From NCBI GenBank assembly GCA_964348605.1, contig CAYGDC010000001.1:6926-41822 (forward strand): a DNA stretch of 34,897 nucleotides. Reading direction: 5' to 3'. A program made the translations under genes and the position numbers. The notes below the pieces were generated by a model. That model ran no database searches. It was not told where the DNA came from and saw only the letters and a list, made by a program, of their open reading frames with translations. Source of the DNA: an uncultured Candidatus Saccharibacteria bacterium. Its GTDB lineage: Bacteria; Patescibacteriota; Minisyncoccia; UBA6257; Colwellbacteraceae. The stretch's first letter is position 1. Every line of letters begins with the position of its first letter. This document shows, in pieces, positions 1 through 23,497 of this stretch.

Positions 1-330
1 TAGCTCCCATGCTTCTCATGGCTCTCATGGCTCTCATAGCTCTCATAGCTCTCATAGCTCTCATAGCTCTCATAGCTCCCATAGCTCTCATAGCTCCCAT
101 GCTTCTCATGGCTCTCATGGCTCTCATAGCTCTCATAGCTCTCATAGCTCTCATAGCTCTCATAGCTCCCATAGCTCTCATAGCTCCCATGCTTCTCATG
201 GCTCTCATGGCTCTCATAGCTCTCATAGCTCTCATGGCTCTCATGGCTCTCATAGCTCCCACGGCTCCCATGGCTCTCATAGCTCCCACGGCTCCCATGG
301 CTCCCATGCCTCTCATAGCTCTCATGGCTC
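1..330. repeat. Tandem repeat with a 9-bp unit (consensus GCTCTCATA) arranged in a 90-bp higher-order unit. Copies start at 1, 91 and 181; the first two are identical and the third diverges after ~232. The array runs off the left window edge.
   Basis: Direct reading shows the same 90-nt string at 1-90 and 91-180. Unit variants are GCTCTCATG, GCTCCCATA, GCTCCCATG, GCTCCCACG, CTTCTCATG and CCTCTCATA. By eye the array is clearly more GC-rich than the following 14 kb. Confidence 0.95.
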
Positions 331-338
331 TTGTATAG
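9..338 (+). CDS. Candidate repeat-encoded hydrophobic low-complexity peptide, (A-L-I/M)n with Pro/Thr variants. The frame stays open to nt 3, so the real 5' end may lie outside the window. Coding status and strand are unresolved.
   Basis: The ORF is in the track, stops with TAG at 336-338, and lies on the same strand 47 nt upstream of the first rSAM gene. Two minus-strand frames are also open across the array (see findings), and Leu is encoded by CTC, which is rare elsewhere in the island. Confidence 0.3.
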   Translation: MLLMALMALIALIALIALIALIAPIALIAPMLLMALMALIALIALIALIALIAPIALIAPMLLMALMALIALIALMALMALIAPTAPMALIAPTAPMAPMPLIALMALV

Positions 339-385
339 TTTGTTGTGTTATCACATTTTGATATATTGTATTTACAATCAAATCC

Positions 386-2170
386 GTGTTTTTACGATAC
401 ATAGCGAATAAAATCTATTTAGAAGCTACAGACTCTATTAAAGAGGAATTTTTGCATCCAGAAATATTTTCAATTAAAAGACACATAAATCTTAGAGAGG
501 AGCACGCCTCAGTGCCGCTAGTTTTATTACTAACAAATAAATGTAATGCAATATGTACTTATTGTTATGTCAACGCAAATAAAACAAAAAAAATAATGAG
601 TTTTAAGTTAGCTAAAAAAGTCATTGATGCTGCTTTAATTAAAAATTCAAAACTAGATATATATTTCTTTGGTGGAGGAGAACCGACTATAGCGTTTGCT
701 TTAATGAAAAAAATTCAAGTATATACTAGTTCTTTCAAAAACAAACAAATAAATTTATTTTTAATCTCTAATGGTTTTTTTAATAAATCTGTAGCTAAAT
801 GGATAGCCAGTAATATAAAACATATTTCAATTTCTTGTGATGGTCCTCCATATATTCAAAATAAAAATAGGCCACTTATAGGGAAGCAAGACAGCAGCTC
901 TATTCTAGAAGAAAATCTTAATTTTTTATTACAAAAGGGAGCATCGGTGGTCCTCAGAGTAACTATCACTATGAACTCTTCTAAAAAACAAAAAGAAATT
1001 ATAGAATATGCTTTCCGATTAGGAATTAAAAAACTTTTGTTTGCACCTTTTAGAACAACTAATAAAAGCAGAAAAAACAAAGTTAAAGCAGTTAATTATT
1101 TCAAATTTGCCCAAGATTTTTTAAAAGCTAATGAGCTAGCTGATATTTTTGGATCCAAAATTATTAGCGACTTTTTTCCCATAGAGCCCAAAGATTCAAT
1201 GTGCGGCTTTGAGTCTCCTAATATAGCTGTTTCTTATTCTGGTCATGTAACTACTTGTTGGGAATCAAGCATTAGTTATACCGATAAACGCGATGAGTTT
1301 GTTTATGGCCGAATAGGGGATAATGGTGAAATTCGAAAAAACCCTCGATCTTGGGATAAAATTACTAAAAGAACACCAGATAATATAGATGAATGCCGCT
1401 CCTGTTTTTTAAAACGGAGTTGTGCTGGCGGTTGCGCCGCTACACATTTTCAAGCAACTGGAGACATAATGAAATTAGACAAAAATCGATGTGATGCCTC
1501 AAGATGGCTTGTCAAACAATATATTCTTTGTCTTGCTAGGCAACAAAACATAAATATTAAACCGTTTTTCGAACAGAATCAAAACAAAACATATTTTATT
1601 ACTTATTTTAACCGCTTTAGGGTGGGGAGAAAAAATATTATGGAGTTTAATCCGTTTATTGAAATAAGTAAGTCTAATTTAGATGATTTATCTCTCCTTA
1701 CAAAATTAATAGTTAAATATCGAGACAAAAAAGGATATAGCCCTATTTTATTTTTTTTAAATTTTATTTTTTCGCCAGATAATTTAAACATTAACACAGG
1801 ACATAAAATTATAACTTTTCTAAAAACTTTATCAGATCATAAAATACATTTTATTATAACAGCCCCATTGCCGAGCTGTATTTTTTCTACAGAAGACCTG
1901 TCTTTCATAATTACAAATTACAAATCTCCCGAAACTCTTATTACTTCTTTATCCTTTTTTCGCATAATAAATAATTTTTATTATTTTAATAACATTAATT
2001 CTAAAATTAAATATTCTGCCCTTGTAAAAAGGGAGATATTATTTAAAAGAGCTTTAGAAATTAAGCCTTTTCAAATTTATAACAAATGTTGTAAATGTCC
2101 ACTATTTTTACAAAAAAGTTGCGGAGGAGTATTTAATAAAATAAATATAAATATTGAAAAAAAATATTAA
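386..2170 (+). CDS. Radical SAM/SPASM-domain enzyme (594 aa) with a ~170-aa Cys-containing C-terminal extension
   Basis: CNAICTYC (CxxxCxxC, aa 53-60, nt 542-565), FFGGGEPT, and a canonical SPASM motif CRSCFLKRSCAGGC (aa 337-350). The C-terminal extension carries PLPSC and CCKCx7CGG. There is no ATG before the rSAM motif. GTG at 386 is the track start; TTG at 452, preceded by AAGAGGA, is an alternative. Confidence 0.85.
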   Translation: MFLRYIANKIYLEATDSIKEEFLHPEIFSIKRHINLREEHASVPLVLLLTNKCNAICTYCYVNANKTKKIMSFKLAKKVIDAALIKNSKLDIYFFGGGEPTIAFALMKKIQVYTSSFKNKQINLFLISNGFFNKSVAKWIASNIKHISISCDGPPYIQNKNRPLIGKQDSSSILEENLNFLLQKGASVVLRVTITMNSSKKQKEIIEYAFRLGIKKLLFAPFRTTNKSRKNKVKAVNYFKFAQDFLKANELADIFGSKIISDFFPIEPKDSMCGFESPNIAVSYSGHVTTCWESSISYTDKRDEFVYGRIGDNGEIRKNPRSWDKITKRTPDNIDECRSCFLKRSCAGGCAATHFQATGDIMKLDKNRCDASRWLVKQYILCLARQQNINIKPFFEQNQNKTYFITYFNRFRVGRKNIMEFNPFIEISKSNLDDLSLLTKLIVKYRDKKGYSPILFFLNFIFSPDNLNINTGHKIITFLKTLSDHKIHFIITAPLPSCIFSTEDLSFIITNYKSPETLITSLSFFRIINNFYYFNNINSKIKYSALVKREILFKRALEIKPFQIYNKCCKCPLFLQKSCGGVFNKININIEKKY

Positions 2171-2672
2171 ATCTATCATATTATTGTTTGTTGGGTTAAT
2201 AATCTTATTATTAATGCACTACTTAGGCATTGCCGACATTCCTTTTGTACAAAATAGTTTATATATAAGTTTTATTTGGTCTATAGTCGCGGTCATATTT
2301 TTAACTATAATTCACCTATTTTATTTTTATATTTTAATTCCCAATAATAAATTTTCGATATATTGGGAGAATATAAGTTGGCGCAAAATATTTAGATTTT
2401 TTTATACTTCATTTATAGAAGAGGTCTGGTTTAGGGGGGTCTTCCTTTTATTATTATTTAATATAATTGAATATCCAGCAATTTTAATATCTGCTATTTT
2501 TTTTACTATCATGCACCATAGCCGAGAGGCGCAAATATTTGCTTTTTTAATGGGGATATTATTCGGATTTATAGTTATTTATACCAATAATATCATAGGA
2601 CCATTTTTAGGCCACTGGATTTTTAATATTATAAATTATAATTTTATTGGCCCAGTTAAAATAAAAAAATAA
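2154..2672 (+). CDS. CPBP-family (CAAX/Abi-type) intramembrane glutamic protease
   Basis: A polytopic hydrophobic protein with the three CPBP motifs: EEVWFR (aa 89-94), FFTIMHH (FxxxH, aa 116-122) and HWIFN (HxxxN, aa 154-158). The TTG start overlaps the upstream rSAM stop by 17 nt, so the exact start is uncertain. Confidence 0.75.
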   Translation: MKKNIKSIILLFVGLIILLLMHYLGIADIPFVQNSLYISFIWSIVAVIFLTIIHLFYFYILIPNNKFSIYWENISWRKIFRFFYTSFIEEVWFRGVFLLLLFNIIEYPAILISAIFFTIMHHSREAQIFAFLMGILFGFIVIYTNNIIGPFLGHWIFNIINYNFIGPVKIKK

Positions 2673-2685
2673 AAATAAGTATATT

Positions 2686-3654
2686 ATGACTCTAATTACA
2701 AAGAGATCTCCATATATCGCGCTTACTTATGATTGTAATTTAAGCTGTGATTATTGCTCTTCAGAGGGACTTTATGAAAGAAATAACAAAAATATTTCAG
2801 TTAAGGATTTTGTATTAGTTATTGATTGGCTTGTAAAACAAGGAGTGAAATCTATCGCTCTTATTGGCGGAGAGCCAACTTTGCATCCAGAATTCAACGA
2901 ATTAATGAGCTATGCCGGTAAAAAAATTGCTATTTTTTTGCCCACGAATGGTCTTTTCGAAGAAAGAAAAAAAATCCCTTTTTCAAAACAAGAAATTAGA
3001 GGAGCCACGCTACATCTTAATGCAAAAACAATGTATTTAGAGAATGATTGGAAATTATTTAATCAAAATGCTATTTATCTATCTAATTTAAATATACTTA
3101 CTGATATTAGTTTTGTAATTAAAGAAGTGCCCTTGCCAAGAGAAGAGATTTTATCCTTTTGCCAGAAATATAAAAGAACACTTCGCCTTGCCTTTGCTCG
3201 ACCAAGCGCTTTTGGAAAAAACAATTTTTTAACTTTTAATCAAATAAAAAAAATTTTTTCATCAATTGAGAAAGATATTATGTTTTTTAGAGAAAAAGGC
3301 ATCAAGACCGCTATGTTTAGTAATTTGCCAATCTGCATAATAGAAAACTATCGCCCTCTTTTTTCGTACAATTCCAGCGATTTATCCCCTAATTTAGGGA
3401 CTTGTTGCTCAACAATAGATGGTAAATTTGATGCGTCTATTGTTATTCACCCCAATTTAACAACAAATATCTGTATGGCATTGCCCCTGTCAAACCCTAA
3501 AAGGATTATTGAATATAAGTCTTTAGATGAAGCTAAAAAAATTTTTGCAAAAGATTTTGCTAAAATTCAAAGAAAGCCTCTTTTTAAAAAGTGTGAAATA
3601 TGTGAGTTATATAATAATAGCTGTCATGGAGGATGCTTAGTCCGCAAACTATAG
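2686..3654 (+). CDS. Radical SAM enzyme with a SPASM/twitch-like C-terminal Cys cluster (322 aa)
   Basis: CNLSCDYC (nt 2734-2757), LIGGEPTL, and C-terminal GTCC...C...CEICx6CHGGC. Confidence 0.85.
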   Translation: MTLITKRSPYIALTYDCNLSCDYCSSEGLYERNNKNISVKDFVLVIDWLVKQGVKSIALIGGEPTLHPEFNELMSYAGKKIAIFLPTNGLFEERKKIPFSKQEIRGATLHLNAKTMYLENDWKLFNQNAIYLSNLNILTDISFVIKEVPLPREEILSFCQKYKRTLRLAFARPSAFGKNNFLTFNQIKKIFSSIEKDIMFFREKGIKTAMFSNLPICIIENYRPLFSYNSSDLSPNLGTCCSTIDGKFDASIVIHPNLTTNICMALPLSNPKRIIEYKSLDEAKKIFAKDFAKIQRKPLFKKCEICELYNNSCHGGCLVRKL

Positions 3655-3730: not shown

Positions 3731-4645
3731 ATGACGCGACTAGATTTAAAGGTGGGATTTCAGTGCAATAATTATTGTATTTTTTGTGTGCAGGGAGACA
3801 AAAGGTACAAGCACCCAGATAGAAATCTAAAAGAAATTAAGCTAATCTTACAGCGCGGCAGCAAAGAATTAAGGCGTAATGTAGTTTTTACTGGAGGAGA
3901 AGCGACTTTGAGAAAAAATATTCTATTAAAAGCAGTGGCCTACGCTAAAAAAATAGGATATCAAACCATTCAAATCCAAAGCAATGGAAGAATGTTCGCT
4001 TATATTGATTATTGTAAAGAGCTTATCATGGCTGGAGCGAATGAGTTTAGTCCAGCGTTACACGGCTCTACTCCTGATATTCATGACGAACTAACTCAAG
4101 TCCCTGGTAGTTTTAAACAAACTACGGAAGGCATCAAAAACCTTAAACTACTCAATCAATATGTGTTAACTAATTCAGTTATTACTAAAAAAAATTATAA
4201 AGACTTACCTAAATTATCAGAGTTATTAGTTCAATTAAGGGTTAATCAATTTCAACTAGCATTTATTCATATTAATCAAATTATTGCTAGTGATCCTTAT
4301 AAAATAAATGATATAGTGCCAAAAGTAAGTAAAGTAATGCCCTATGTTAAGAAAGCGCTTGATGTTGGGGTTATAGCAGGTGTTTCTTGCATGACTGAGG
4401 CAATTCCCTATTGCCTAATGTATGGTTATGAGGACTATATTGCTGAAAAAATTATACCAGAAGCGCATGTTTTTGATGCAGAGATAGATATTATAGACTA
4501 TACTCAATACAGACGAAATCAAGGGAAAATTAAATCTCCTAATTGCCTAAGGTGTTATTACTATCAAGTCTGCGAAGGTCCGTGGAAAGAGTATCCAGAG
4601 ATTTTTGGATGGTCAGAGTTTAAATCAGTAATTAATAAAAAATGA
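3731..4645 (+). CDS. Radical SAM enzyme, paralog family A, member A1 (304 aa)
   Basis: CNNYCIFC (nt 3764-3787), FTGGEATLR, SNGRMFAY, HDELTQVPGSFKQTTEGIKN, and C-terminal IPYC...CLRCx5CEG. It closely resembles the internal rSAM domain of the 1151-aa fusion. Confidence 0.85.
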   Translation: MTRLDLKVGFQCNNYCIFCVQGDKRYKHPDRNLKEIKLILQRGSKELRRNVVFTGGEATLRKNILLKAVAYAKKIGYQTIQIQSNGRMFAYIDYCKELIMAGANEFSPALHGSTPDIHDELTQVPGSFKQTTEGIKNLKLLNQYVLTNSVITKKNYKDLPKLSELLVQLRVNQFQLAFIHINQIIASDPYKINDIVPKVSKVMPYVKKALDVGVIAGVSCMTEAIPYCLMYGYEDYIAEKIIPEAHVFDAEIDIIDYTQYRRNQGKIKSPNCLRCYYYQVCEGPWKEYPEIFGWSEFKSVINKK

Positions 4646-5637
4646 TCAATTTAAAAAATAAAAAAGCTGTTTTTAAAAAAATTAACACAATAACTAAATT
4701 ATTTAATTTATCTGCTTATGAGTTATTAGCTGTTATTTACAATTTAAAACCAGCAATGGCTGAAGCTAATACCGGTGTTTATGACTCATCGTCTTCTGAG
4801 AAGCTAGATCAACTTGGAAGAATATGTTCAGAGCTAGGCCTTAAAATGGCCTTCTCACAAAAAAAATATATCATTAATAGCCCACGAGGAATTTTTGAAG
4901 AAGTAGAACTGAATAGCCCAGAAGACGGTAATTTAGTTATTGGGATATCTAAAGATATACAAACATCATTAAGTGCTGTGGCTCATTATCGATGGAAGAT
5001 GAAAGATAGTATTTATGGCAGGAGCTTTGGCAAGCTTATGGGCTATCCTGACTGTTGCTTAGATTTTGGAGACTATTTATGCAAGGGTCACGGTGATAGC
5101 AATTCTAATAATTTAGGATTCCGTAATCCAGCCGTGGAGTCACTTAAAAGATCAAAAAAAGTAGCTTGGCAATTAAATATCTTTGTCGCATCAGCTTTGC
5201 CCCACTATCCTTGTCATTTAAATTGCAACAAAAGCAAAGATTATGTTAATGGTCTTTTCGAAATTCTAAAAATAGCTGCGCCAGAAATATACCTAAGGCA
5301 CACAATGATGCTTAAAAATGATATTAGTCTTTATTGGAGTTGCGCTGATAAGGTTGTTTTTCATGGTCATTTTATAAAAAAAGGAAATAGTTTTGCAGAT
5401 ACTGAAGCCCAATATAATAGCGCAGACTTCCATATTAATTCTTCTACATTTTATCAAGCTAACAGCGATAGTTATTTAAATCAGCTAGAAGTTATCAAGC
5501 AAGCAATAAAAGAGGGGGATAAAATCATAACTACGCCAAAATATTTTGAAATTCGGCATAGTAAAACTGTTTTATTAAAAATCAATAAAAGCCATGAGCT
5601 TATTCCAGTTTTACTTAAAAGTGATAATGAAAAATAG
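4642..5637 (+). CDS. Cys-motif protein of unknown function, family B, member B1 (331 aa)
   Basis: Motifs GYPDCC (aa 134-139) and HYPCHLNC (aa 188-195) are shared with the ORF at 7473-8432. Its ATGA start overlaps the A1 stop. I cannot place it in a named family from memory. Confidence 0.7.
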   Translation: MINLKNKKAVFKKINTITKLFNLSAYELLAVIYNLKPAMAEANTGVYDSSSSEKLDQLGRICSELGLKMAFSQKKYIINSPRGIFEEVELNSPEDGNLVIGISKDIQTSLSAVAHYRWKMKDSIYGRSFGKLMGYPDCCLDFGDYLCKGHGDSNSNNLGFRNPAVESLKRSKKVAWQLNIFVASALPHYPCHLNCNKSKDYVNGLFEILKIAAPEIYLRHTMMLKNDISLYWSCADKVVFHGHFIKKGNSFADTEAQYNSADFHINSSTFYQANSDSYLNQLEVIKQAIKEGDKIITTPKYFEIRHSKTVLLKINKSHELIPVLLKSDNEK

Positions 5638-6574
5638 CAATCAAAAACAACTCATAGCAGTAACAGGATTCACATGTAACAATAATTGTGTTTTATGTTC
5701 ACTAAGGCCTCAGGCCCTTATTCATAATAATAAAAGTACGCAGGAAATCGAAGTTATGTTGGCATCTGCTGCCAAAGAAGGCTTATCAGCAGTAGAGTTC
5801 ACAGGTGGTGAGCCTACTTTAAGAAAAGACTTACTTCATCTTATTTGTTACGCAAAAAATATAGGGTTTCGAAATATTGCGATTGGGACTAATGGTCGGC
5901 TTTTAAGTTATAAAGTTTTTTTAAACAATTTGATTAGCGCCGGATTAAATAAAATTACCCTGACCCTTTTTTCCCATAAGGAACTTATTCACGATTCAAT
6001 AACGCGAACTCCTGGATCATTTAAGCAAACAGTAACCGCTATCAATAATATTATTCAAGAGCCCAGTATTCAATTAAGCGTCAATACAACAGTTTGTCAA
6101 TTGAATTATGCATTACTTAATGAAACTGGGATATTTTTATATAAAGCTGGAGTTAAGCATTGGGGGGTCTTAGACCTTATTCCTTTTGGCAATGCTGATA
6201 AACTTTATATAAGTTTGGTAGTTAAGCTAGATGAGTTATATATTGCGCTTAATAAACTTGAAAATATAGTAGGCTATTTTCAATCAGTATCATTTTTTGA
6301 CTTCTCTCACTGTTTGTTTAATAAAAAAATAAGGAGTCATCTAAATATCAGATTTTTTGATGCGCAAGAAAGAGTGCATACTTTTAAACAAATAGGGTAT
6401 CGTCCTGCAAGATTTAGCGTGAAAAAAAAAGACATTTATAGCGATGTTCATAAGCGTCATATTGCAATATGCGAAAATTGCCATTATAACAAAAATTGTG
6501 CAGGTTTTTGGCAAAACTATCTTCATTTATATGGCGAATCATTTAAAGCTCAGGTAATAAAAAAAGCTCTCTAA
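5627..6574 (+). CDS. Radical SAM enzyme, paralog family A, member A2
   Basis: CNNNCVLC (nt 5675-5698), FTGGEPTLRKD, TNGRLLSY, HDSITRTPGSFKQT, and C-terminal CENCx5CAG. The track start is 5594. I prefer the ATG at 5627 (MKNSNQ...), which overlaps the stop of B1. Confidence 0.8.
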   Translation: MKNSNQKQLIAVTGFTCNNNCVLCSLRPQALIHNNKSTQEIEVMLASAAKEGLSAVEFTGGEPTLRKDLLHLICYAKNIGFRNIAIGTNGRLLSYKVFLNNLISAGLNKITLTLFSHKELIHDSITRTPGSFKQTVTAINNIIQEPSIQLSVNTTVCQLNYALLNETGIFLYKAGVKHWGVLDLIPFGNADKLYISLVVKLDELYIALNKLENIVGYFQSVSFFDFSHCLFNKKIRSHLNIRFFDAQERVHTFKQIGYRPARFSVKKKDIYSDVHKRHIAICENCHYNKNCAGFWQNYLHLYGESFKAQVIKKAL

Positions 6575-6578
6575 AAAT

Positions 6579-7433
6579 ATGACAACTAAAACAATTAGTC
6601 CTTATATATATATAGGATATCATTGTAATAATAACTGTATTTTTTGCTCTGAGGCTGATGGATATCTCGAGGCATTAAAAATAAAAACCACAGATCAAGT
6701 TAAAAAAGAAATTATTGCAGCTAGGCAGCAATACAATTTTATTAATTTTATGGGCAGAGAGCCCACTCTTAGAAATGATTTTATAGACATTATTAAATTT
6801 GCTCAACAACAACATTTTGAACAGATCGGTTTTACTACCAATGGCAGAATGTTGGCATACCCAGAATTTACTCAAAGGATTTTACGCACCGGCATCAATC
6901 AAGTTGCTATTTCTTTAATTGGGAATAATCACATTATTCACGATAAACAAACTCAGGTTAAGGGTAGTTTTATGCAAACAATTCATGGTATTAAAAATGT
7001 GATTAAATTTAAAGACCCTGATACCAGCTTATTAATTAACATACCACTAAATAAATTAAATTATCTTTCGCTCAAGCCTTCTCTTGATTTATTAGTAAAA
7101 TTAGGAGTTAGAGAGATTAATATTCTTTTTGTTTTTCCTTTAAGTGAGCGCTCGCAGAATAAAAATATTATAATGTCGATGAGTAAGCTAGGAGCGCATG
7201 TCTTTAAGGTCATTAAGCCTTATTTGCAAAATCCAAATTTAAAGATTCTTTTAGTAGAATTTTTGCCATGCTCTTTGCCTAAAGAAGCTAGGCAACTTTT
7301 TTTTCCTTGTTTGGAAAAAAATCCAGAGAAAATAAGAATTCCGTTATGCTCTCAATGTTCTTATAAAGGTAAGTGCGACGGAGTTTTAAAAAACTATATT
7401 GATTTATATGGAGATAGAGAATTTGTTCTTTAA
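6579..7433 (+). CDS. Radical SAM enzyme, paralog family A, member A3 (284 aa)
   Basis: CNNNCIFC (nt 6624-6647), MGREPTLRND, TNGRMLAY, HDKQTQVKGSFMQTIHGIKN, and C-terminal CSQCx5CDG. Confidence 0.85.
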   Translation: MTTKTISPYIYIGYHCNNNCIFCSEADGYLEALKIKTTDQVKKEIIAARQQYNFINFMGREPTLRNDFIDIIKFAQQQHFEQIGFTTNGRMLAYPEFTQRILRTGINQVAISLIGNNHIIHDKQTQVKGSFMQTIHGIKNVIKFKDPDTSLLINIPLNKLNYLSLKPSLDLLVKLGVREINILFVFPLSERSQNKNIIMSMSKLGAHVFKVIKPYLQNPNLKILLVEFLPCSLPKEARQLFFPCLEKNPEKIRIPLCSQCSYKGKCDGVLKNYIDLYGDREFVL

Positions 7434-7472
7434 GTGAGAAAGGTTTATAATTTTTATTAAATAATATTAATA

Positions 7473-8432
7473 ATGAAAATTAATAAAAATCTACATAAAG
7501 AAATAATTAATTATAATCTAGATTATATAGAGCTTCTTGCTCTTTTAAATAATATTAAGCCCTTAGTTTTTTGTACTATATGCCAAGCACAAAAAAATAA
7601 CTTAATAAAGCTAATGAAAAAACTTAATCTTTATTACAGATTTGTAACTGATCCGATAATTGAAGAAAAATCCGAAATGTCAAGTAGCGAAGGAGAATTT
7701 TTAATTATTTCTAAAGAGATCGAGAAAGTAAATAATTTTATTAATGTATATTTTGGCGATAATCATGAAAAAAAATTTACAAAAGTTGGAGAGCTTTTAG
7801 GCTACCCTAAGTGTTGTGCTTTTAAATATATAAATTATATTTTTAATGATGGGTCACCACAAAGATTAAGAAATTATTATTATCAGGCAACAAAAAAATC
7901 TCAAAAATTTCACTCTCTAATTAACCCCCTTTTTTCTTTTTATGGCAGGATAAGCTCAAATGAGTTTGTAAAACTTAGATCTTTTTCTGAAAAAAATAAG
8001 TCTCTCAACATACAAGAATTAATGTTGATTTCTCATGCCCCCTGTTCTTTTAATTGCATTCAGAGCATTGAATATGCAAAAAAAATCTATTCTGTTTTAA
8101 AAAGGGAAAATAAAATTAAGGCCAATAAAATTATTAAGATTCTATCAAATCCAGTTCTTTTTTTTGATACGTTTGAGTTTATTGTTTTTAATGGAAAAGC
8201 AAATAAAAAAGAAATTATTTATAACAATATTTGTCCTCCATTTTCGCTAGTTTCTGATAAAATAATAAAAAAAATTAAACAAGGAAATAGATTACTTGTT
8301 AATGATGTTAATATTCAAATATATATTGATAAAAAAAAGATATATACAATAAAAAAAGAAAGTGTGTCCGATGGGTTTATAATACCATTTTCAAAAAATT
8401 TAATAAAAGATTATGGCCTTACTCATGAATAA
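7473..8432 (+). CDS. Cys-motif protein of unknown function, family B, member B2 (319 aa)
   Basis: GYPKCC (aa 110-115) and HAPCSFNC (aa 188-195). The N-terminal ELLAxxxNxKP segment also resembles B1. Confidence 0.7.
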   Translation: MKINKNLHKEIINYNLDYIELLALLNNIKPLVFCTICQAQKNNLIKLMKKLNLYYRFVTDPIIEEKSEMSSSEGEFLIISKEIEKVNNFINVYFGDNHEKKFTKVGELLGYPKCCAFKYINYIFNDGSPQRLRNYYYQATKKSQKFHSLINPLFSFYGRISSNEFVKLRSFSEKNKSLNIQELMLISHAPCSFNCIQSIEYAKKIYSVLKRENKIKANKIIKILSNPVLFFDTFEFIVFNGKANKKEIIYNNICPPFSLVSDKIIKKIKQGNRLLVNDVNIQIYIDKKKIYTIKKESVSDGFIIPFSKNLIKDYGLTHE

Positions 8433-11400
8433 AAAATATTTTTATCTAAATATGCAAGATAAAGATTTAGAAGAAAGGATTTCGATACATAAAAAATTTT
8501 TAGACTTACATCTTGGCAATCGATTTATGGTCGATATACCAATATGTGTAAATCCACCTAAAGATTTTAATGCCGAATCTATTAAGGATTTTTGGCAAAA
8601 TTTTGTCTCTGCATTTCCCCATCGCACTGACAGTAAAATATTAAATTTTTATATTCATATCCCTTATTGTCTAAATAAGTGCCATTATTGTTTTTATGGA
8701 TCTGAGGCATTAAATAATAAGAAAGACTTAGATCGATATATTGCTGTTTTAATAAAATATTTTCAATATTTTGAGAAGACTTTTAATAAAATAACTTTTG
8801 CAAATTTATATATAGGTGGTGGGACACCTAATATATTAGATGAAAAACAATTAAAGACTTTATTAGCTGAGTTATTTAAGCGTTTTAAATTTGACAAGGA
8901 TGGAGAGAAGACATTTGAAGGCGATCCCAGGTGTTCTTCTTTAAAAAAGCTTAAGTTATTAAAAAAATACGGCTTTAATCGCATTAGCTTTGGCGTGCAA
9001 TCTTTTGATAAAAAAGTATTAAAATATAATAATAGAGATGAACAAATTGATGGCAAGGTAGTAAAACGCGCTGTTGATGATGTTAAAAAAGCCGGCATCT
9101 CCCACATTAATTTAGATATGATAGTGGGTCTTTATGGCGAAGAAGAAAATTCCCTTATTACAAGTTTCCAACAAGCCATTCAGTTAAAGCCCTATTCTAT
9201 ATCTGTATATCCCATGCAAGCAACTGATAAATATCTAAAAATGTTTTTTGATTCTAATAAAACAAAATTTGATGAATATCGAGCAAAAATTATTAATTCG
9301 ACAATAAGCAAGATATTAGAAATTGCTGAAGAGAATAATTATAAGTGCCCCACTTATTCAGAATATATTTTTCCAATGAGTAATGCCTCTTCTTTTAGTT
9401 TAATTAATCAAGCTATACGCCCGCTAAGCTCAACATACAATGTAGATAGCCCTGATCAAAATGTTTCTTGTTTTGGATTGGGGATTCATAGTATTTCTAA
9501 AATTAATGGCAGAGAATTTTCTTATCAAATGACAGAGCCGCTAACGACACATCCAGTGAACTATATTTATAAGGGAATTGCCAATGATAAAAAGCATCAA
9601 ATAGCTGAATATCTTGTGAGGGGATTTGCTTCCAAAAAATTTATTTCTAGAGCAGATATTAGAAAAGCTATCGGCGCTGATGTTATTGATTATTTCCAAG
9701 ATGTTCTTACAAAGCTAAAGGCAATTAAAATAATTAGCATTAGGGGAGATAAAGTATATTTTGCCCCTAAAACAGAGGATGAAAGAAAAAAAAATATATT
9801 ATTTTTTTATGATATTGATGAAATTAAAGCGCGCATGCCAAAAGAAGAAATAGAGCCTATTCAGCATGATAATAAAATAAAAAAAACCGTTATTATCGCT
9901 GGTTATGCTTGTAATAATAATTGCATTTTTTGTATACATGGAGACAAGCGTAGTCAGATTGTAGATAAAACTAATCTGCAAATTAAAAAAGAAATAAATG
10001 AGGCACGCAATCGAGGCAGTACTTATTTAGAAATTATTGGCGGAGAAGCGTCAACAAGGCTGGATATACTAGATTTAATAAAGTTTGCCAAAAAAATAGG
10101 ATTTAGCACCATTATGATGGCTACTAATGGTCGAATGTATTCGTATGAAGAGTTTACCAGAAAGGCTCTCCAGGCTGGCCTAAATAGCCTAGTTTTTTCT
10201 ATTCATGGCCACAATAGCGAGCTTCACGATGCCCTTACTCAGGCTCCTGGTAGTTTCCAGCAACTCAAACAGGGGCTTCAAAATGCACAAAAAATAGCAA
10301 AAGATTTAAATCTAGATATAAGCTTGGGAGCTAATGTTTGCATTGTAAAACAAAATTATAAATATTTGCCCAAGATTGGAAATTATATTAAAAAACTAGG
10401 GATTAATAACGCTGAATTTATTTTTATTGATCCCAATAATGGCGCAGGACTTAAGTCTTTTAATAAACTGGTTCCTAAAATTTCTGATGCTGCGCCATAT
10501 ATTCATAAGTGTTTAGAAATCGGTAAAAAAAATAAAATACCTCATTGGCACATTAGATATGTTCCTCTTTGTTATTTTCAAAATTATCTTGATCAAATAA
10601 GTGAATTACAGGAAATAAAATCATTTCACACTGAGCACATTGCGCCTGATTTTTATAATCCAAATGCCTCGGAGGGAAGACAAAATATTGGGCGAATAAA
10701 AACAGAAAAATGCCAAAAGTGTCAATTATTTAATAAATGCGAAGGCGTCTGGAAAGAATATTTTAGGCACTATGGTGATGCAGAACTAATGCCTATTATT
10801 GATAATAATTCTAATCACCAAAATGCCCCTATTGTTCTTCTTAGAATCCTTCCTGCCACATTTGATTTATATATAAACAATATAGATCTTCTTTGCCAAA
10901 GAATGAAGAATGATTTTAACATGCCTGTAAATCTACTATTTATAGTTTCTATGGAAGATATACTGGGAGAATTTAGAGACAAAAAGAAAAAGATGGCAGT
11001 AAAAAAAATAAAAAAAATAGTTACTAAATTAGTAAAGAAAAATTTAGATTTTAGCATTAGTCCGCTTCCTCCGTGTTTATTTAATGTTCCTTGCCCAATA
11101 ATCATCAAAAAACGGATTTTGAAAAACAATCAAACCTATTCTTTGCCCCCAGCGTTCATAACTGATCCAGGCATAAAACATTCTATTGATAGCATTGAAA
11201 ACATGGACATCCAGCCCCAATGTTTATCATGCCAATTTAAATTGAAGAATAAATGTAGGGGGATATATATAAAGATAGGCGTACCATTAATTGATCAAAA
11301 AACTCAAGAATGGTTAAAAAACAAAATAGAATCATCAAAAAATATTACTTTACTTGATTGTGGTAGTGGCGCTAATCCGCCATTTTTAAAAACCTATAAA

Positions 11401-11868
11401 GAAATTGCCTTGGGAGGCGGCCTTATACATCTTTTAGAACCCGATACAGAAGAGGTGGTGGGACTAATGCCAGCAGTCTCTAGCTACCCTAGTATTATTA
11501 TTAATAATAATACTATTGAAGATGCTGATCTCCAGAGAAATTTTTTTGATATTGTAATATTAACTGGCAGCTATTCTCATATTCACAATTTACACAAAGC
11601 ATTGCTGAATATAGAGAGCGCTTTAAAACAAGGAGGTCTTTTATTAATAAAAGACGAAATGGACACAACGCAATCTGAGGGAAATAAAATTTTTGATAAA
11701 AGCCAAGCGTCAGCTTACGGATTTCATTACAGGAATCATAGCTTAAAGCGAGTTACTGCTGAGCTAGAAAAATATAACTTTAAAGTTATTGAAGGAGTAG
11801 AAGGAGAAGCAATGAAAAATAAACATCAGTTTTGGGCTATTAAAGCAGAAAAAAATAGCTATATATAG
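8413..11868 (+). CDS. Four-domain fusion protein (1151 aa): HemN/HemZ-like radical SAM + family-A radical SAM (A4) + Cys-containing X domain + class I SAM-dependent methyltransferase
   Basis: HemN-like: YIHIPYCLNKCHYC (nt 8668-8691), YIGGGTPN, NRISFGVQSF, NLDMIVGLYGE. A4: CNNNCIFC (nt 9910-9933), IIGGEASTR, TNGRMYSY, HDALTQAPGSFQQL, CQKCx5CEG. X domain (aa ~805-955): SPLPPC and CLSCx7CRG. Methyltransferase: LLDCGSGANP (aa ~979-988) and a later GGLLLIKD. An alternative ATG at 8425 overlaps the B2 stop. Confidence 0.85.
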   Translation: MALLMNKKYFYLNMQDKDLEERISIHKKFLDLHLGNRFMVDIPICVNPPKDFNAESIKDFWQNFVSAFPHRTDSKILNFYIHIPYCLNKCHYCFYGSEALNNKKDLDRYIAVLIKYFQYFEKTFNKITFANLYIGGGTPNILDEKQLKTLLAELFKRFKFDKDGEKTFEGDPRCSSLKKLKLLKKYGFNRISFGVQSFDKKVLKYNNRDEQIDGKVVKRAVDDVKKAGISHINLDMIVGLYGEEENSLITSFQQAIQLKPYSISVYPMQATDKYLKMFFDSNKTKFDEYRAKIINSTISKILEIAEENNYKCPTYSEYIFPMSNASSFSLINQAIRPLSSTYNVDSPDQNVSCFGLGIHSISKINGREFSYQMTEPLTTHPVNYIYKGIANDKKHQIAEYLVRGFASKKFISRADIRKAIGADVIDYFQDVLTKLKAIKIISIRGDKVYFAPKTEDERKKNILFFYDIDEIKARMPKEEIEPIQHDNKIKKTVIIAGYACNNNCIFCIHGDKRSQIVDKTNLQIKKEINEARNRGSTYLEIIGGEASTRLDILDLIKFAKKIGFSTIMMATNGRMYSYEEFTRKALQAGLNSLVFSIHGHNSELHDALTQAPGSFQQLKQGLQNAQKIAKDLNLDISLGANVCIVKQNYKYLPKIGNYIKKLGINNAEFIFIDPNNGAGLKSFNKLVPKISDAAPYIHKCLEIGKKNKIPHWHIRYVPLCYFQNYLDQISELQEIKSFHTEHIAPDFYNPNASEGRQNIGRIKTEKCQKCQLFNKCEGVWKEYFRHYGDAELMPIIDNNSNHQNAPIVLLRILPATFDLYINNIDLLCQRMKNDFNMPVNLLFIVSMEDILGEFRDKKKKMAVKKIKKIVTKLVKKNLDFSISPLPPCLFNVPCPIIIKKRILKNNQTYSLPPAFITDPGIKHSIDSIENMDIQPQCLSCQFKLKNKCRGIYIKIGVPLIDQKTQEWLKNKIESSKNITLLDCGSGANPPFLKTYKEIALGGGLIHLLEPDTEEVVGLMPAVSSYPSIIINNNTIEDADLQRNFFDIVILTGSYSHIHNLHKALLNIESALKQGGLLLIKDEMDTTQSEGNKIFDKSQASAYGFHYRNHSLKRVTAELEKYNFKVIEGVEGEAMKNKHQFWAIKAEKNSYI

Positions 11869-11925: not shown

Positions 11926-12480
11926 ATGAATAAAAAAGTTTTGCTTGGAGTAGTTATATTATTTGTTGTGTTAGGCATTTTATTTATTATGATGTTAATG
12001 CCTAATTTAATCGCAGAAAGGGAGGGGGTGGGAGCGAATAGACAAGAAGCGCGACCAACATCTCTTCGTTCTTTAGTAACCCCTAATGGGCGGATTATTT
12101 ATTTGCGCGACGACATGTTCTTAAACGCGATCCACGGATTTTTTAAAGAGCAAATTAGTCCATCAGAGTTCATAATGATAGCTGACTTACAACAAATGTT
12201 TCAGGACGCCGACGGACTACATACAGAAATAAGAGTTACTATACATCCAGATGCTCCAGTTGTTGCCGTTAAAGGAATTCGAGCAGATAGAACTATGGAC
12301 GAAACTCCTATATCTATAGATGATTTACGATGGGGGAATCTAATTCAACTTGAATTAATGACCGGAGAGCTCAATACTCAAGTTTTTGAAAAAGATGCAT
12401 ATACCCCAAGAAGAATTATGCGCCTTGATTTTATTCCCATGGGCCTTACTCCTACTACTGAGCCTGCGTCTATCCCTTAA
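11926..12480 (+). CDS. Hypothetical membrane-anchored or secreted protein (184 aa)
   Basis: It has an N-terminal hydrophobic helix (VLLGVVILFVVLGILFIMMLM) followed by a soluble domain with no motif I recognise. By eye it is noticeably more GC-rich than its neighbours. Confidence 0.6.
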   Translation: MNKKVLLGVVILFVVLGILFIMMLMPNLIAEREGVGANRQEARPTSLRSLVTPNGRIIYLRDDMFLNAIHGFFKEQISPSEFIMIADLQQMFQDADGLHTEIRVTIHPDAPVVAVKGIRADRTMDETPISIDDLRWGNLIQLELMTGELNTQVFEKDAYTPRRIMRLDFIPMGLTPTTEPASIP

Positions 12481-12513
12481 AACACAGCAAAGGGGATTAA
12501 ACATAATAGTAAA

Positions 12514-12551
12514 ATACACATGGGGTGTTTATAAGAACATCCCATGTGTAT
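12514..12551 (+). terminator. Strong stem-loop downstream of the 184-aa ORF (putative terminator)
   Basis: ATACACATGGGGTGTT (12514-12529) pairs with GAACATCCCATGTGTAT (12535-12551), giving a ~16-bp stem with one G-A mismatch and a 5-nt loop. The tail is AT-rich, not a clean T-tract. Confidence 0.55.
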
Positions 12552-12585
12552 TATAAAATAACAAGATTTAAGCACATTCAATAAT

Positions 12586-12614
12586 TTGATTATCGCAAAT
12601 TTATAGATTATTAT
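12586..12614 (+). promoter_or_regulatory. Sigma70-like promoter in front of the 73-aa ORF
   Basis: TTGATT (12586-12591), a 17-nt spacer, then TATTAT (12609-12614), ending 16 nt before the ATG at 12631. The geometry matches the rpsB promoter here. In AT-rich DNA chance matches are common. Confidence 0.4.
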
Positions 12615-12630
12615 TTAAAAAAATAAAAAA

Positions 12631-12852
12631 ATGCAAAAAACTTCTTTAGTTGATAAAAAACAATATGCTGTTATTTATCGTAGTATAGAGCACTTTGAGG
12701 TTCTTGGCTTTGTTACGGCTGATTCTATAGAGGATGCAAAAGACAAGGCTAAAAAAGAATTATTAGTAGAAGCTAAACACTACGTGGTAACAGAAGCAGA
12801 AATTGCTGAATTAAAAGATTTAAATAAAATATCTTTTGATATTTCCACTTAA
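12631..12852 (+). CDS. Small hypothetical protein (73 aa), acidic/Lys-rich with no Cys
   Basis: The ORF is in the track. It sits 5 nt upstream of rSAM A5 and has its own promoter-like element. No recognisable motif. Confidence 0.5.
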   Translation: MQKTSLVDKKQYAVIYRSIEHFEVLGFVTADSIEDAKDKAKKELLVEAKHYVVTEAEIAELKDLNKISFDIST

Positions 12853-12857
12853 ATAAA

Positions 12858-13805: not shown

Positions 13806-13806
13806 G

Positions 13807-16756: not shown

Positions 16757-16758
16757 TT

Positions 16759-23325: not shown

Positions 23326-23408
23326 GCACAGGTGGTAGAGTGGTCAATTACAACAGACTGTAAATCTGTCGCCTTCGGGCTACGCAGGTTCGAATCCTGC
23401 CCTGTGCA
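23326..23408 (+). tRNA. tRNA-Tyr (anticodon GTA), class II with a long variable arm; CCA not encoded
   Basis: The cloverleaf folds by hand: acceptor GCACAGG/CCTGTGC, anticodon stem ACAGA/TCTGT with loop CTGTAAA, T arm GCAGG-TTCGAAT-CCTGC. Confidence 0.9.
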
Positions 23409-23497
23409 CTGATTAAGAGAGATTTTAAAAAACTAGTTAGTTATTTATTTGTTTTTTACGATTTTTAATGTAATATTTTATAAGCAATATTATGTTT

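What the first reader, a model, noticed from the sequence alone, without database searches (positions are those of the whole stretch)
1..338. A 9-bp/90-bp tandem array directly upstream of the rSAM-SPASM/CPBP pair, open in three frames: (A-L-I/M)n on plus, (Y/H-E/G-S)n and (A-M-R)n on minus
Seen: the array occupies nt 1-330, is more GC-rich than the island, and ends about 50 nt before the first rSAM gene. Three frames stay open across it. (a) Plus strand: (A-L-I/M)n with Pro/Thr variants and a 30-aa super-repeat, MLLMALMALIALIALIALIALIAPIALIAP. This frame is open to the window edge and stops at 336-338, so an N-terminal leader could lie outside the window. (b) Exact antisense codons read NKLYKSHESYERHGSHGSRGSYESHGSRGSYESHESHESYESYESHESHEKHGSYESYGSYESYESYES..., that is aromatic/His-Xaa-Ser triplets. 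This frame is entered from TGA TAA (complement 348-353) with no ATG, GTG or TTG before the repeats. (c) The other minus-strand frame reads (A-M-R)n with G/S/V variants. Its first ATG, at complement 323-325, sits right at the array boundary, leaving no leader. The commonest unit variant (ATA versus ATG) gives I/M in (a), Y/H in (b), and is silent (GCT/GCC) in (c). Frame (a) uses CTC for Leu, which is rare in this island; frame (c) uses the locally preferred AGA and GCT codons. Established: precursors with three-residue periodicity are substrates of rSAM/SPASM maturases, for example the His-Xaa-Ser (Hxs) systems and the three-residue cyclophane 'triceptide' precursors. Leader-then-core is the usual RiPP layout. 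Inference: the array is the best in-window candidate for the substrate of the island. Frame (a) has the right strand and position, frame (b) has the most suggestive chemistry but no start, and frame (c) has the best codon and synonymous-variation signature. I cannot decide among them from the sequence alone.
Basis: partly seen in the sequence, partly recalled or inferred. Interest (0 to 1): 0.85.

Follow-up and report, generated by a model that had tools for sequence, protein, structure and literature searches.

The report
His-Xaa-Ser repeat precursor gene (HxsA-type)

Summary
The 9-bp/90-bp array at 1-331 is real. It is open in four frames, not three. The coding frame is the unlisted one: plus strand, frame 2 (window 2-358, stop at 359-361). 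It reads (His-[Ser/Gly/Ala]-Ser)n and ends in SCIVCCVITF.

Two other assemblies, identical to the window over 11.8 kb downstream, extend leftwards. They show a 213-aa ORF: conserved leader, hydrophobic segment, 38 HxS triplets, Cys-rich tail. That ORF scores above NCBIfam's cut-off for HxsA4. It sits directly after hxsD, an hxsD-like gene and hxsB, all above their cut-offs.

In this frame His and Ser are invariant (38/38 each). Every amino-acid change falls on Xaa, and all third-position changes in the His and Ser codons are silent. Relatives keep only this frame.

All three frames it offered are wrong.

The 594-aa SPASM enzyme always co-occurs with HxS proteins that carry Cys-containing tails, so it probably modifies that tail.

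This is a divergent, uncharacterised variant of the HXS system, which was shown in 2026 to be antiphage in E. coli. It differs by having 38 to at least 48 repeats, no peptidoglycan-binding domain, about ten rSAM domains, and a Parcubacteria host. Its function here is inferred only.

The parts
1..331 (+). Tandem array of 9-bp units (CAT-RGC/GCY-TCY), with a 90-bp super-repeat. It holds 36 complete His-Xaa-Ser codon triplets (nt 8-331) plus one triplet cut by the window edge.
   Evidence: TRF result; register and units; 90-bp periodicity.
2..361 (+). 3' part of the hxsA-type coding sequence (plus-strand frame 2), including the stop TGA at 359-361. The 5' part (leader, spacer and first triplets) lies outside the window.
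   Evidence: Translation. Full ORF in L001 4464-5105 and in L002. NCBIfam HxsA4: 71.1 bits against a cut-off of 55 for the full ORF, 51.1 bits for the window fragment. Invariant His and Ser. Leader compared with L029: 23 synonymous against 8 non-synonymous codon changes.
332..358 (+). Codons for the C-terminal Cys-rich hydrophobic tail C-I-V-C-C-V-I-T-F. This is the probable target of the SPASM enzyme and/or the CPBP protease (inferred).
   Evidence: Related tails occur in L029 (SCLVCCVFTFFS), L030 (ACLICCFFAF) and L031 (SCVECCKLLF), each followed by an orthologue of the SPASM enzyme.
386..2170 (+). 594-aa radical SAM/SPASM enzyme with a C-terminal extension of about 200 aa. It is an accessory maturase.
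   Evidence: Pfam Radical_SAM; NCBIfam SPASM domain at 40.7 bits against a cut-off of 27. Best families are PapB (123 bits), QhpD (104) and HxsB (94), all below their cut-offs. Orthologues appear.
2184..2672 (+). CPBP (Rce1-like) intramembrane protease. The start codon is uncertain: gene callers used 2184 or 2214, and the longest ORF starts at 2154.
   Evidence: Pfam PF02517 at 51 bits against a cut-off of 22.4. Gene calls. Conserved next to the SPASM orthologue in L029, L030, L031 and L034.
2686..3654 (+). 322-aa radical SAM protein. It forms a conserved trio with the SPASM enzyme and the CPBP protease.
   Evidence: Orthologues follow the CPBP gene in L029, L030 and L031.
3731..4645 (+). HxsC-like radical SAM protein (304 aa). 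It is the most conserved gene of the train.
   Evidence: HxsC4 136 bits and HxsC 103 bits, both below cut-off. 51-64% identical copies occur in 20 genomes of Patescibacteria, DPANN archaea and Elusimicrobia.
4642..8432 (+). Four genes: unknown 331 aa (4642-5637), HxsC-like rSAM 326 aa (5594-6574), HxsC-like rSAM 284 aa (6579-7433), unknown 319 aa (7473-8432).
   Evidence: synteny.
8413..11868 (+). 1151-aa fusion of a HemN-like rSAM domain, an HxsC-like rSAM domain and a SAM-dependent methyltransferase domain.
   Evidence: The middle domain is 52-65% identical to stand-alone HxsC-like genes in relatives.
11926..14970 (+). End of the island: unknown 184 aa, conserved 73-aa protein (12631-12852), the rSAM closest to canonical HxsC (12858-13805), and a 387-aa membrane protein with a borderline prepilin-peptidase (A24) match (13807-14970).
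   Evidence: HxsC 180 bits against a cut-off of 267.9. Peptidase_A24 26.3 bits against a cut-off of 26.5. Synteny.

Best explanation
The array is the repeat-coding 3' part of an hxsA-type gene on the plus strand, in frame 2.

Product (213 aa in two sibling assemblies, probably about 243 aa in the window's own contig):
- a conserved N-terminal leader (P.IKK.I..FL.SEEGKISK);
- a hydrophobic segment ending in Ala-Ala-Ala before His;
- a short spacer;
- 38 to at least 48 His-Xaa-Ser triplets;
- the Cys-rich tail SCIVCCVITF.

Gene order: hxsD, hxsD-like, hxsB, hxsA, SPASM-594, CPBP, rSAM-322, then several hxsC-like rSAM genes. All are on one strand with short gaps.

Shown here: the ORF, its frame, its family, the synteny, the purifying selection on His and Ser, and in-frame variation in copy number.

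Inferred by homology with the E. coli HXS system: HxsB, HxsD and HxsC-like enzymes recognise the leader and covalently modify His/Ser within the triplets. The N-terminus is then removed and the product is exported to the envelope.

Inferred from co-occurrence: the SPASM-594 enzyme acts on the Cys tail, most likely forming thioether cross-links, and the CPBP protease trims the peptide.

Speculative: the mature His-rich product acts at the cell surface, either as an antiphage barrier like HXS or as a metal or partner-binding polymer.
For: ORF and family:
- L001 and L002 match the window exactly over 11,830 nt downstream. They carry a 213-aa ORF with an ATG start 21 nt after the hxsB stop.
- NCBIfam HxsA4 scores 71.1 bits against a cut-off of 55. 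The leader also matches positions 1-50 of the HxsA3 model.
- Upstream genes: HxsB 481 bits (cut-off 370), HxsD 60.3 (cut-off 50), HxsD-like 61.9 (cut-off 41).

Frame:
- His 38/38 and Ser 38/38 are invariant. All 24 replacements fall on Xaa and 18 changes are silent. No other frame keeps two invariant positions.
- Between L001 and its 89%-relative L029, the leader has 34 nucleotide differences. 25 are at third positions, giving 23 synonymous and 8 non-synonymous codon changes. The other five frames carry 3-15 stops.
- In L005, L006 and L007 only the HxS reading is conserved. The other frames give unrelated peptides or stops.

Family and context:
- The leader is conserved across 19 homologues.
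- The family has 1296 clusters at 50% identity with E<=1e-3.
- The order HxsD, HxsD-like, HxsB, HxsA, rSAM train recurs in Omnitrophota, Patescibacteria and Elusimicrobia. HxsD, HxsB, HxsA and a SPASM orthologue are also found together in a DPANN archaeon (L034).
- SPASM-594 orthologues at 32-89% identity sit with HxS genes in 8 of 8 loci.
- The closest curated families to SPASM-594 are Cys-thioether maturases: PapB, QhpD, SCIFF and CefB.
- Copy number is 38 (L001, L002), 42 (L029) and at least 48 (window). All differences are whole codons.

[quoted passage not shown] A +8 Da modification was mapped to an HxS motif, but it could not be assayed in the deletion strains (PMC13128918).
Against: - There are no expression or peptide data for this locus.
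- The HxsC-like proteins all score below the HxsC and HxsC4 cut-offs.
- The protein does not match canonical HxsA (TIGR03979) and has no peptidoglycan-binding domain. Transfer of the antiphage mechanism is therefore weak.
- Part of the HxsA4 score comes from the low-complexity repeats.
- Five related loci keep the HxsC-like train with no HxsA, HxsB or HxsD within 10 kb. Not every downstream rSAM need act on this peptide.
- L009 and L017 have a CC motif after the repeats but no SPASM-594 orthologue. The tail-to-enzyme link is a tendency, not a rule.
- The copy number in the window cannot be resolved, because the contig ends inside the array.
Confidence: 0.88

Rival explanations
1. Antisense (A-M-R)n protein. 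A 171-aa minus-strand ORF (L001 4554-5069) starts at the ATG at window complement 323-325.
For: - It is open and has an ATG.
- It shows 18 synonymous changes among units.
- Its codon score equals that of the HxS frame.
- Gene callers chose this strand in L002, L029 and the NCBI record behind L034.
Against: - Its silent changes mirror the third-position changes of the true frame. It also shows R/G (13) and M/V (4) replacements, so no residue is invariant.
- The frame contains stops in L006 and L007.
- Beyond the array it runs antisense to the conserved leader. In the L001-L029 comparison of that leader, each of the three minus-strand frames carries 3-14 stops; the frame with 3 stops has 3 synonymous and 28 non-synonymous changes.
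- It has no match in NCBIfam, and it has no leader of its own.
Confidence: 0.02
2. Plus-strand hydrophobic (A-L-I/M)n peptide.
For: It is on the same strand as the operon and is open to the window edge.
Against: - In the full locus the ORF begins at an ATG inside the array (L001 4744-5082), so it has no leader.
- It shows 0 synonymous and 43 non-synonymous changes among units.
- It has the worst codon score, -1.73.
- It has no NCBIfam match.
- The corresponding frame in relatives reads unrelated peptides.
Confidence: 0.01
3. Antisense (Tyr/His-Glu/Gly-Ser)n peptide.
For: It has superficial aromatic-Xaa-Ser periodicity, and its codon score is similar to that of the HxS frame.
Against: - It has no start codon.
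- It shows 0 synonymous and 41 non-synonymous changes.
- In L006 the same frame reads SHGIRGKSESRVNRVN.
- It lies on the opposite strand to every gene of the operon.
Confidence: 0.01
4. The frame is right, but the product is a stand-alone histidine-rich metal-binding or surface protein. On this view the downstream rSAM train does not modify it, and adjacency is only operon packing.
For: - The HxsC-like train occurs with no HxS gene within 10 kb in L012, L015, L016, L019 and L023.
- His-rich repeats can bind metals without modification (general knowledge).
Against: - HxsB and HxsD, both above equivalog cut-offs, always sit next to an HxS gene wherever the flank is available. The one locus without a detected HxS gene (L027) has HxsB at the contig end.
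- The leader is conserved far beyond what a signal peptide needs.
Confidence: 0.08

Closest known systems
NCBIfam HxsA4 (NF038313) and HxsA3 (NF038309): leader-type His-Xaa-Ser repeat proteins of Omnitrophota and related uncultured lineages
   Same: Same layout: conserved leader (FL.SEEGK), hydrophobic segment, HxS triplets and a short variable tail. It scores above the HxsA4 cut-off. It is encoded after hxsD, hxsD-like and hxsB and before HxsC-like rSAM genes, as in the NCBI-annotated HxsA4 locus L006.
   Different: - 38 to at least 48 uninterrupted triplets; the longest run among the 120 homologues listed is 29.
- The spacer motif AHxSxFxN is duplicated.
- It has a Cys-rich hydrophobic tail instead of ...GQW.
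- A SPASM-594, CPBP and rSAM-322 module lies directly downstream. It is absent from L006 and L007.
- No partner reaches the HxsC4 cut-off.
- The host is a Parcubacteria bacterium.
HXS antiphage system of E. coli and other Pseudomonadota (HxsA, HxsB, HxsC, HxsD; PMC13128918)
   Same: HxsB and HxsD are equivalog-level matches. In both systems an HxS-repeat protein with an N-terminal export-like segment is the presumed substrate of the rSAM enzymes.
   Different: - Canonical HxsA has five basic HxS repeats and a peptidoglycan-binding domain, and the gene order is D-B-C-A.
- Here there is no TIGR03979 match and no domain hit. There are about 40 non-basic repeats, the order is D-D'-B-A-..., and there are about ten rSAM domains instead of two.
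- The paper places 99.7% of systems in Pseudomonadota.
Triceptides: three-residue cyclophane RiPPs made by rSAM/SPASM enzymes, including His-based cross-links such as HtkB and HaaB (PMC11499958, abstract seen)
   Same: A three-residue motif with His in the first position, placed next to rSAM/SPASM enzymes.
   Different: The enzymes here hit cyclophane synthase models only weakly: YhhB 38 bits, GrrM 49 bits, AmcB 32-43 bits, against cut-offs of 310-445. The one modification measured in an Hxs system is +8 Da, not the -2 Da of a cyclophane.
Cys-thioether-forming SPASM maturases (PapB ranthipeptide, SCIFF, QhpD, CefB)
   Same: These are the best-scoring curated families for the 594-aa enzyme. Its presumed substrate carries three Cys in a nine-residue tail.
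   Different: All scores are far below the cut-offs (123 against 340 for PapB). The enzyme also has an extra C-terminal extension of about 200 aa. The chemistry is untested.

Membership tests
NCBIfam NF038313, His-Xaa-Ser repeat protein HxsA4 | Whole-protein score at or above the curated cut-off of 55 bits | tested here: met
   The full ORF from L001, whose downstream DNA is identical to the window, scores 71.1 bits. The window fragment alone scores 51.1 bits. Part of the score comes from the repeats.
NCBIfam NF038313, His-Xaa-Ser repeat protein HxsA4 | Conserved N-terminal leader followed by tandem His-Xaa-Ser triplets | tested here: met
   Alignment of 19 homologues: F17 and E21 invariant, K12 and L18 at 90% or more. 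38 of 38 triplets are intact. The leader lies outside the window.
NCBIfam NF038313, His-Xaa-Ser repeat protein HxsA4 | Partner rSAM HxsC4 (NF038332) at or above 500 bits | tested here: not met
   The best score in the window is 157 bits. In the NCBI-annotated HxsA4 locus L006 the best is also only 208 bits.
Hxs system (TIGR03976-03979; HXS antiphage system) | HxsB radical SAM/SPASM maturase (TIGR03978, cut-off 370) | tested here: met
   481 bits for L001 2991-4442, directly upstream of the array gene and outside the window.
Hxs system (TIGR03976-03979; HXS antiphage system) | HxsD (TIGR03976, cut-off 50) | tested here: met
   60.3 bits for L001 2043-2786. An HxsD-like 71-aa protein also scores 61.9 bits against a cut-off of 41.
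Hxs system (TIGR03976-03979; HXS antiphage system) | HxsC radical SAM maturase (TIGR03977, cut-off 267.9) | tested here: not met
   The best is 180 bits (window 12858-13805). The five other HxsC-like matches score 79-103 bits.
Hxs system (TIGR03976-03979; HXS antiphage system) | [quoted passage not shown] | tested here: not met
   No TIGR03979 match at E<=0.1. No Pfam domain is on record for the product. It has 38 or more repeats.
Hxs system (TIGR03976-03979; HXS antiphage system) | Blocks phage DNA entry; rSAM-dependent +8 Da modification | not testable with these tools
   Requires experiments. PADLOC 2023 has no Hxs models.
Triceptide (three-residue cyclophane) RiPPs | A cyclophane-forming rSAM/SPASM maturase of the XyeB, YhhB, GrrM or AmcB type | tested here: not met
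   HxsB scores 38 bits against YhhB, 49 against GrrM and 32 against AmcB. SPASM-594 scores 43 against AmcB. The cut-offs are 310-445.
Triceptide (three-residue cyclophane) RiPPs | C-C bond between the ring of residue 1 and the beta carbon of residue 3 | not testable with these tools
   Requires MS and NMR of the product.
CPBP / Rce1-like intramembrane proteases (PF02517) | Pfam gathering score of 22.4 bits | tested here: met
   51 bits for window 2154-2672.
PapB-type ranthipeptide maturases (NF047865) | Score at or above 340 bits | tested here: not met
   123.5 bits. This is the top-scoring family for the 594-aa enzyme but is far below the cut-off.

The most novel reading that the evidence does not exclude
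Ultra-small-genome lineages (Patescibacteria, DPANN archaea, Omnitrophota, Elusimicrobia) carry an expanded Hxs-type pathway of about ten rSAM domains. On this reading it iteratively modifies a length-variable poly(His-Xaa-Ser) chain of 38 to at least 48 triplets and, through a dedicated SPASM/CPBP module, cross-links and trims its Cys tail. The result would be a heavily modified surface polymer that acts as an envelope-level antiphage barrier or a host-attachment or metal-handling factor. It would extend the newly described HXS defence far beyond Pseudomonadota, and it would be a RiPP-like product with dozens of identical modification sites.
Probability: 0.25. Interest if true: 0.7.

Novelty: new variant of a known kind. 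Interest (0 to 1): 0.45.

Why it matters
- It settles the frame question. The array encodes the curated HxsA-type His-Xaa-Ser precursor, not any of the three readings proposed.
- It exposes a recurring annotation error. Gene callers, including the one behind an NCBI record, place a wrong-strand ORF over these arrays. Assemblers also break at them.
- The HXS system was shown to be an antiphage system only in 2026 and was reported as 99.7% Pseudomonadota (PMC13128918). This locus and its relatives form a much larger, unstudied version in candidate-phyla bacteria and DPANN archaea. There the island takes up about 2-3% of a 0.7-Mb genome: more than 16.6 kb of the 689-kb genome behind L017.
- The substrate changes length in whole 9-bp or 90-bp steps.
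- The locus gives a concrete set of constructs for working out the still-unknown Hxs chemistry: hxsA, hxsB, hxsD, the hxsC-like genes, and SPASM-594 with CPBP.

Tried and rejected
- Codon-usage scoring of the four open frames does not separate the HxS, (Y/H-E/G-S)n and (A-M-R)n frames. It was dropped as evidence.
- Rfam finds nothing in the array; the window has only four tRNAs elsewhere. An RNA reading was rejected.
- PADLOC has no Hxs model and gives only generic viperin-like rSAM hits.
- Literature searches for HxsA3, HxsA4 and HxsC4, and for rSAM RiPPs in Patescibacteria, found nothing on this variant.
- The promoter and terminator scan gave counts at the level of shuffled sequence.
- An exact-sequence cluster look-up gave no organism names, and neither the plus- nor the minus-strand ORF is in the collection.
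- The 340-aa C-terminal domain fused to HxsA in L009, L013 and L017 has no homologue in the window.
- L027 (Nanohaloarchaea) has HxsB at the contig end, but no HxS ORF is visible in its 8.3 kb.
- No repeat-type precursor was found in the loci that carry the HxsC-like train without HxsA, HxsB or HxsD.
- Structure prediction was not run. It would not decide frame, family or chemistry.
Full report
**Observation**

The window opens inside a tandem array. Tandem Repeats Finder reports one array at 1-331 with period 9, 36.8 copies, 87% matches and score 425. No other repeat in the window scores above 65. Written in 9-mers, the units are TAGCTCTCA and close variants. Positions 1-90 and 91-180 are identical, and the perfect 90-bp periodicity extends for 235 nt. 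GC is 0.52 in the array and 0.34 elsewhere.

Four frames are open, and the unlisted one is plus-strand frame 2 (nt 2-358, stop TGA at 359-361). It reads SSHASHGSHGSHSSH...SHSSHGSCIVCCVITF, which is His-Xaa-Ser triplets on the same strand as every gene of the island.

Openness itself says nothing here. With a 9-bp period each frame has only three codons, so a random unit leaves a frame open with probability (61/64)^3 = 0.87 (my arithmetic).

**Finding the rest of the gene**

An exact-sequence look-up of the 594-aa rSAM protein returned four other assemblies. All match the window exactly over up to 11,830 nt downstream of the array.

- L001 (a 38.7-kb ENA contig) and L002 extend to the left.
- L003 and L004 begin inside the array, as the window does.
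- In L001 the HxS frame is a complete 213-aa ORF (4464-5105) with an ATG start 21 nt after the stop of the preceding gene.

The protein sequence is MNIKKKFPIIKKRIQAFLSSEEGRISKKSALELGTTVAIIGIMATRVAAAHTSYFQN...NHVSFFENVAGQGR, followed by 38 uninterrupted H-x-S triplets and then CIVCCVITF.

In the same locus the other readings fare badly:

- The (A-L-I/M)n ORF starts at an ATG inside the array, so it has no leader.
- The (Y/H-E/G-S)n frame has no start codon.
- The (A-M-R)n ORF runs on antisense into the leader-coding region.

**Which frame is under selection**

Among the 38 units of L001 the variable nucleotide positions are 3, 4, 5, 6 and 9 of CAT-NNN-TCT. Positions 1, 2, 7 and 8 never change.

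- In the HxS frame His is 38/38 and Ser is 38/38. All 24 replacements fall on Xaa (Ser 19, Gly 14, Ala 5), and 18 changes are silent.
- The (A-L-I/M)n frame shows 0 synonymous and 43 non-synonymous changes.
- The (Y/H-E/G-S)n frame shows 0 synonymous and 41 non-synonymous changes.
- The (A-M-R)n frame shows 18 synonymous and 24 non-synonymous changes, but with R/G and M/V replacements at its 'fixed' positions. This is what the antisense of a constrained frame looks like.

Codon-usage scoring does not separate three of the four frames, so I do not use it. The raised GC follows from the amino-acid composition: expected 0.49, observed 0.52.

Between-genome comparison is independent of the repeat structure.

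- L029 carries an 89%-identical SPASM gene. Against L001 its 273-nt leader has 34 differences, 25 of them at third positions. That gives 23 synonymous and 8 non-synonymous codon changes with no stops. The other five frames carry 3-15 stops.
- In more distant relatives (L005, L006, L007) the HxS reading is kept while the codons differ. The other frames then read unrelated peptides or contain stops.

**Family**

The full ORF scores 71.1 bits against NCBIfam NF038313 'His-Xaa-Ser repeat protein HxsA4' (cut-off 55). Its leader also matches positions 1-50 of the HxsA3 model at 51.7 bits (cut-off 65). The window fragment alone reaches 51.1 bits. The (A-L-I/M)n translation matches nothing.

The three genes before it in L001 are:

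- HxsD: TIGR03976, 60.3 bits against a cut-off of 50.
- A 71-aa HxsD-like protein: NF038315, 61.9 bits against 41.
- HxsB: TIGR03978, 481 bits against 370.

A protein search found 203 relatives. One is named HxsA4 by NCBI in an Omnitrophota genome, and others come from Diapherotrites, Woesearchaeota and Elusimicrobiales. An alignment of 19 leaders shows the conserved pattern P.IKK.I..FL.SEEGKISK, then a hydrophobic stretch, then small-x-small followed by H.S.F. A profile search of 1.84 billion representative proteins finds 1296 clusters at E<=1e-3 and 149 at E<=1e-10. Most are 90-160 aa long.

The window's protein has the longest uninterrupted triplet run among the 120 homologues listed, 38 against at most 29. 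Its sister L029 has 42.

**Copy number**

The window and L001 are identical for the last 282 nt up to the stop. To the left of that point the window continues the 90-bp period, while L001 has unique sequence. The window contig therefore carries at least one more 90-bp (30-codon) copy. If its 5' part is the same as L001's, that gives at least 48 triplets.

All observed differences (38, 42, at least 48) are whole codons. I cannot tell real polymorphism from assembly uncertainty. The contig ends in the window, L003, L004 and L030, and an N-run in L009, show that these arrays break assemblies.

**Context and what the downstream enzymes are**

The window's genes after the array are, in order:

- a 594-aa rSAM/SPASM enzyme. 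Its best families are PapB (123 bits), QhpD (104) and HxsB (94), all below cut-off;
- a CPBP/Rce1-like protease;
- a 322-aa rSAM protein;
- four stand-alone HxsC-like rSAM proteins, plus one HxsC-like domain inside an 1151-aa fusion with a HemN-like rSAM domain and a methyltransferase domain;
- two pairs of proteins of unknown function;
- a 387-aa membrane protein with a borderline prepilin-peptidase match.

No HxsC-like protein reaches the HxsC cut-off (best 180 against 267.9) or the HxsC4 cut-off (best 157 against 500).

The order HxsD, HxsD-like, HxsB, HxsA, HxsC-like train recurs in Omnitrophota (L006, L007/L008), Patescibacteria (L009, L017; rearranged in L013) and Elusimicrobia (L024, L025).

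Orthologues of the 594-aa enzyme (32-89% identity; L005 and L029-L034) sit on the same strand as an HxS-repeat ORF in all eight loci, counting this one. Those ORFs carry Cys-containing tails:

- SCIVCCVITF (window)
- SCLVCCVFTFFS (L029)
- ACLICCFFAF (L030)
- SCVECCKLLF (L031)
- SCTPVA (L005)
- ...GGWC and ...SACPCCAGIGAEI (L032 and L033)
- ...LLVMCKTQCPGG (L034)

A CPBP gene accompanies the enzyme in five of the eight loci. L031 has the compact set rSAM-282, HxsA, SPASM-634, CPBP and rSAM-324, with no HxsB or HxsD on its 11.7-kb contig. Because the enzyme's nearest curated families all make Cys thioethers, I infer that it acts on the Cys tail.

One caveat applies. In L012, L015, L016, L019 and L023 the HxsC-like train and the membrane protein occur with no HxsA, HxsB or HxsD and no tandem array within 10 kb. 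Not every downstream rSAM need act on this peptide.

**Host**

The window's Tgt protein is 77-78% identical to proteins named from 'Parcubacteria group bacterium' and 'Candidatus Colwellbacteria'. Every other lineage-specific name among the listed hits is also a Patescibacteria group; three hits are labelled only 'bacterium'. The island's closest genomic relatives are Nealsonbacteria, Falkowbacteria, Uhrbacteria and similar MAGs, one of them a complete 689-kb genome. The window therefore comes from a candidate-phyla-radiation bacterium.

**Comparison with what is known**

The Hxs families were defined bioinformatically by Haft and Basu, as cited in PMC9062424. In 2026 the four-gene HXS system of E. 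coli was shown to block phage DNA entry. [quoted passage not shown] That modification could not be assayed in the deletion strains. [quoted passage not shown] The gene order is D-B-C-A, and 99.7% of systems are in Pseudomonadota (PMC13128918).

The present locus shares HxsB, HxsD and the repeat logic. It fails the canonical HxsA and HxsC tests, has about eight to ten times as many repeats, and carries about ten rSAM domains. I found no paper on HxsA3, HxsA4 or HxsC4, or on this island in Patescibacteria. PADLOC has no model for it. Triceptide-type cyclophane synthases, which can act on His-x-x motifs (PMC11499958), are only weak matches.

**Mechanism**

Shown by sequence and comparison: the ORF, its frame, its leader-core-tail layout, the operon context, purifying selection on His and Ser, and in-frame length variation.

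Inferred by homology: HxsB, HxsD and HxsC-like enzymes recognise the leader and modify the triplets. The N-terminus is then cleaved and the product is exported through the hydrophobic, AxA-ended segment.

Inferred from co-occurrence: SPASM-594 cross-links the Cys tail, and the CPBP protease or the A24-like membrane protein trims the peptide.

Speculative: an envelope role, either as an antiphage barrier like HXS or in binding metals or partner cells.

**Verdict**

The thing itself is a new variant of a known, curated but largely uncharacterised kind. Interest is moderate.

Noticed in passing
L002 2931-3446 (-); L029 5394-5918 (-); L034 3987-4193 (-): Gene callers, including the one behind an NCBI record, place a wrong-strand ORF ((A-M-R)n or (V-R-G)n) over HxS arrays. 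L001, whose DNA is identical to L002, got the correct plus-strand call. This looks like a recurring annotation artefact for the family.
   Followed up: partly
window 1; L003 and L004 start (= window 274); L030 1-191; L009 7679-7778: Contigs from several assemblers end inside HxS arrays or carry N-runs there. Copy number is therefore systematically uncertain in short-read assemblies.
   Followed up: partly
L009 7334-8863; L013 1-1299; L017 6443-7936: In three Patescibacteria genomes the HxsA leader and repeats are fused to a C-terminal domain of about 340 aa and unknown function. The domain starts at a CCPF motif that resembles the window's tail. It has no homologue in the window.
   Followed up: partly
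L012, L015, L016, L019, L023 (each with 10-kb flanks): The HxsC-like rSAM train and the A24-like membrane protein occur with no HxsA, HxsB, HxsD or tandem array nearby. L019 instead has other rSAM and HemN-like genes upstream. The substrate of the train in these loci is unknown.
   Followed up: partly
L032 2475-3318; L033 3646-4606: Two tandem HxsA paralogues share near-identical leaders but have different tails (...AQGGWC and ...SACPCCAGIGAEI). They lie upstream of a SPASM-620 orthologue and a B12-binding rSAM gene.
   Followed up: no
window 8413-11868: A 1151-aa triple fusion of a HemN-like rSAM domain, an HxsC-like rSAM domain and a SAM-dependent methyltransferase domain. In relatives the HxsC-like part is a separate gene.
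   Followed up: partly
window 18024-20165: A 713-aa SMC_N/AAA ATPase scores 217 bits against PADLOC mad3 and 101 bits against LmuB. It could be a defence ATPase or simply the lineage's short SMC/RecN-like protein.
   Followed up: no
window 23326-23690 and 26154-26227: Three tRNA genes are clustered on the plus strand and one lies on the minus strand. These are the only Rfam matches in the window.
   Followed up: no
window 15116-17559: Two-subunit pyruvate/2-oxoacid:ferredoxin oxidoreductase genes lie directly after the rSAM island. They could supply reduced ferredoxin for rSAM chemistry, or the position could be coincidental.
   Followed up: no
L001 4611-4733 (outside the window): The spacer between the hydrophobic segment and the repeats holds two copies of the AHxSxFxN motif (AAHTSYFQN and ANHVSFFEN). 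More distant relatives (e.g. L006, L007) have one copy; L005 and L029 also have two.
   Followed up: no
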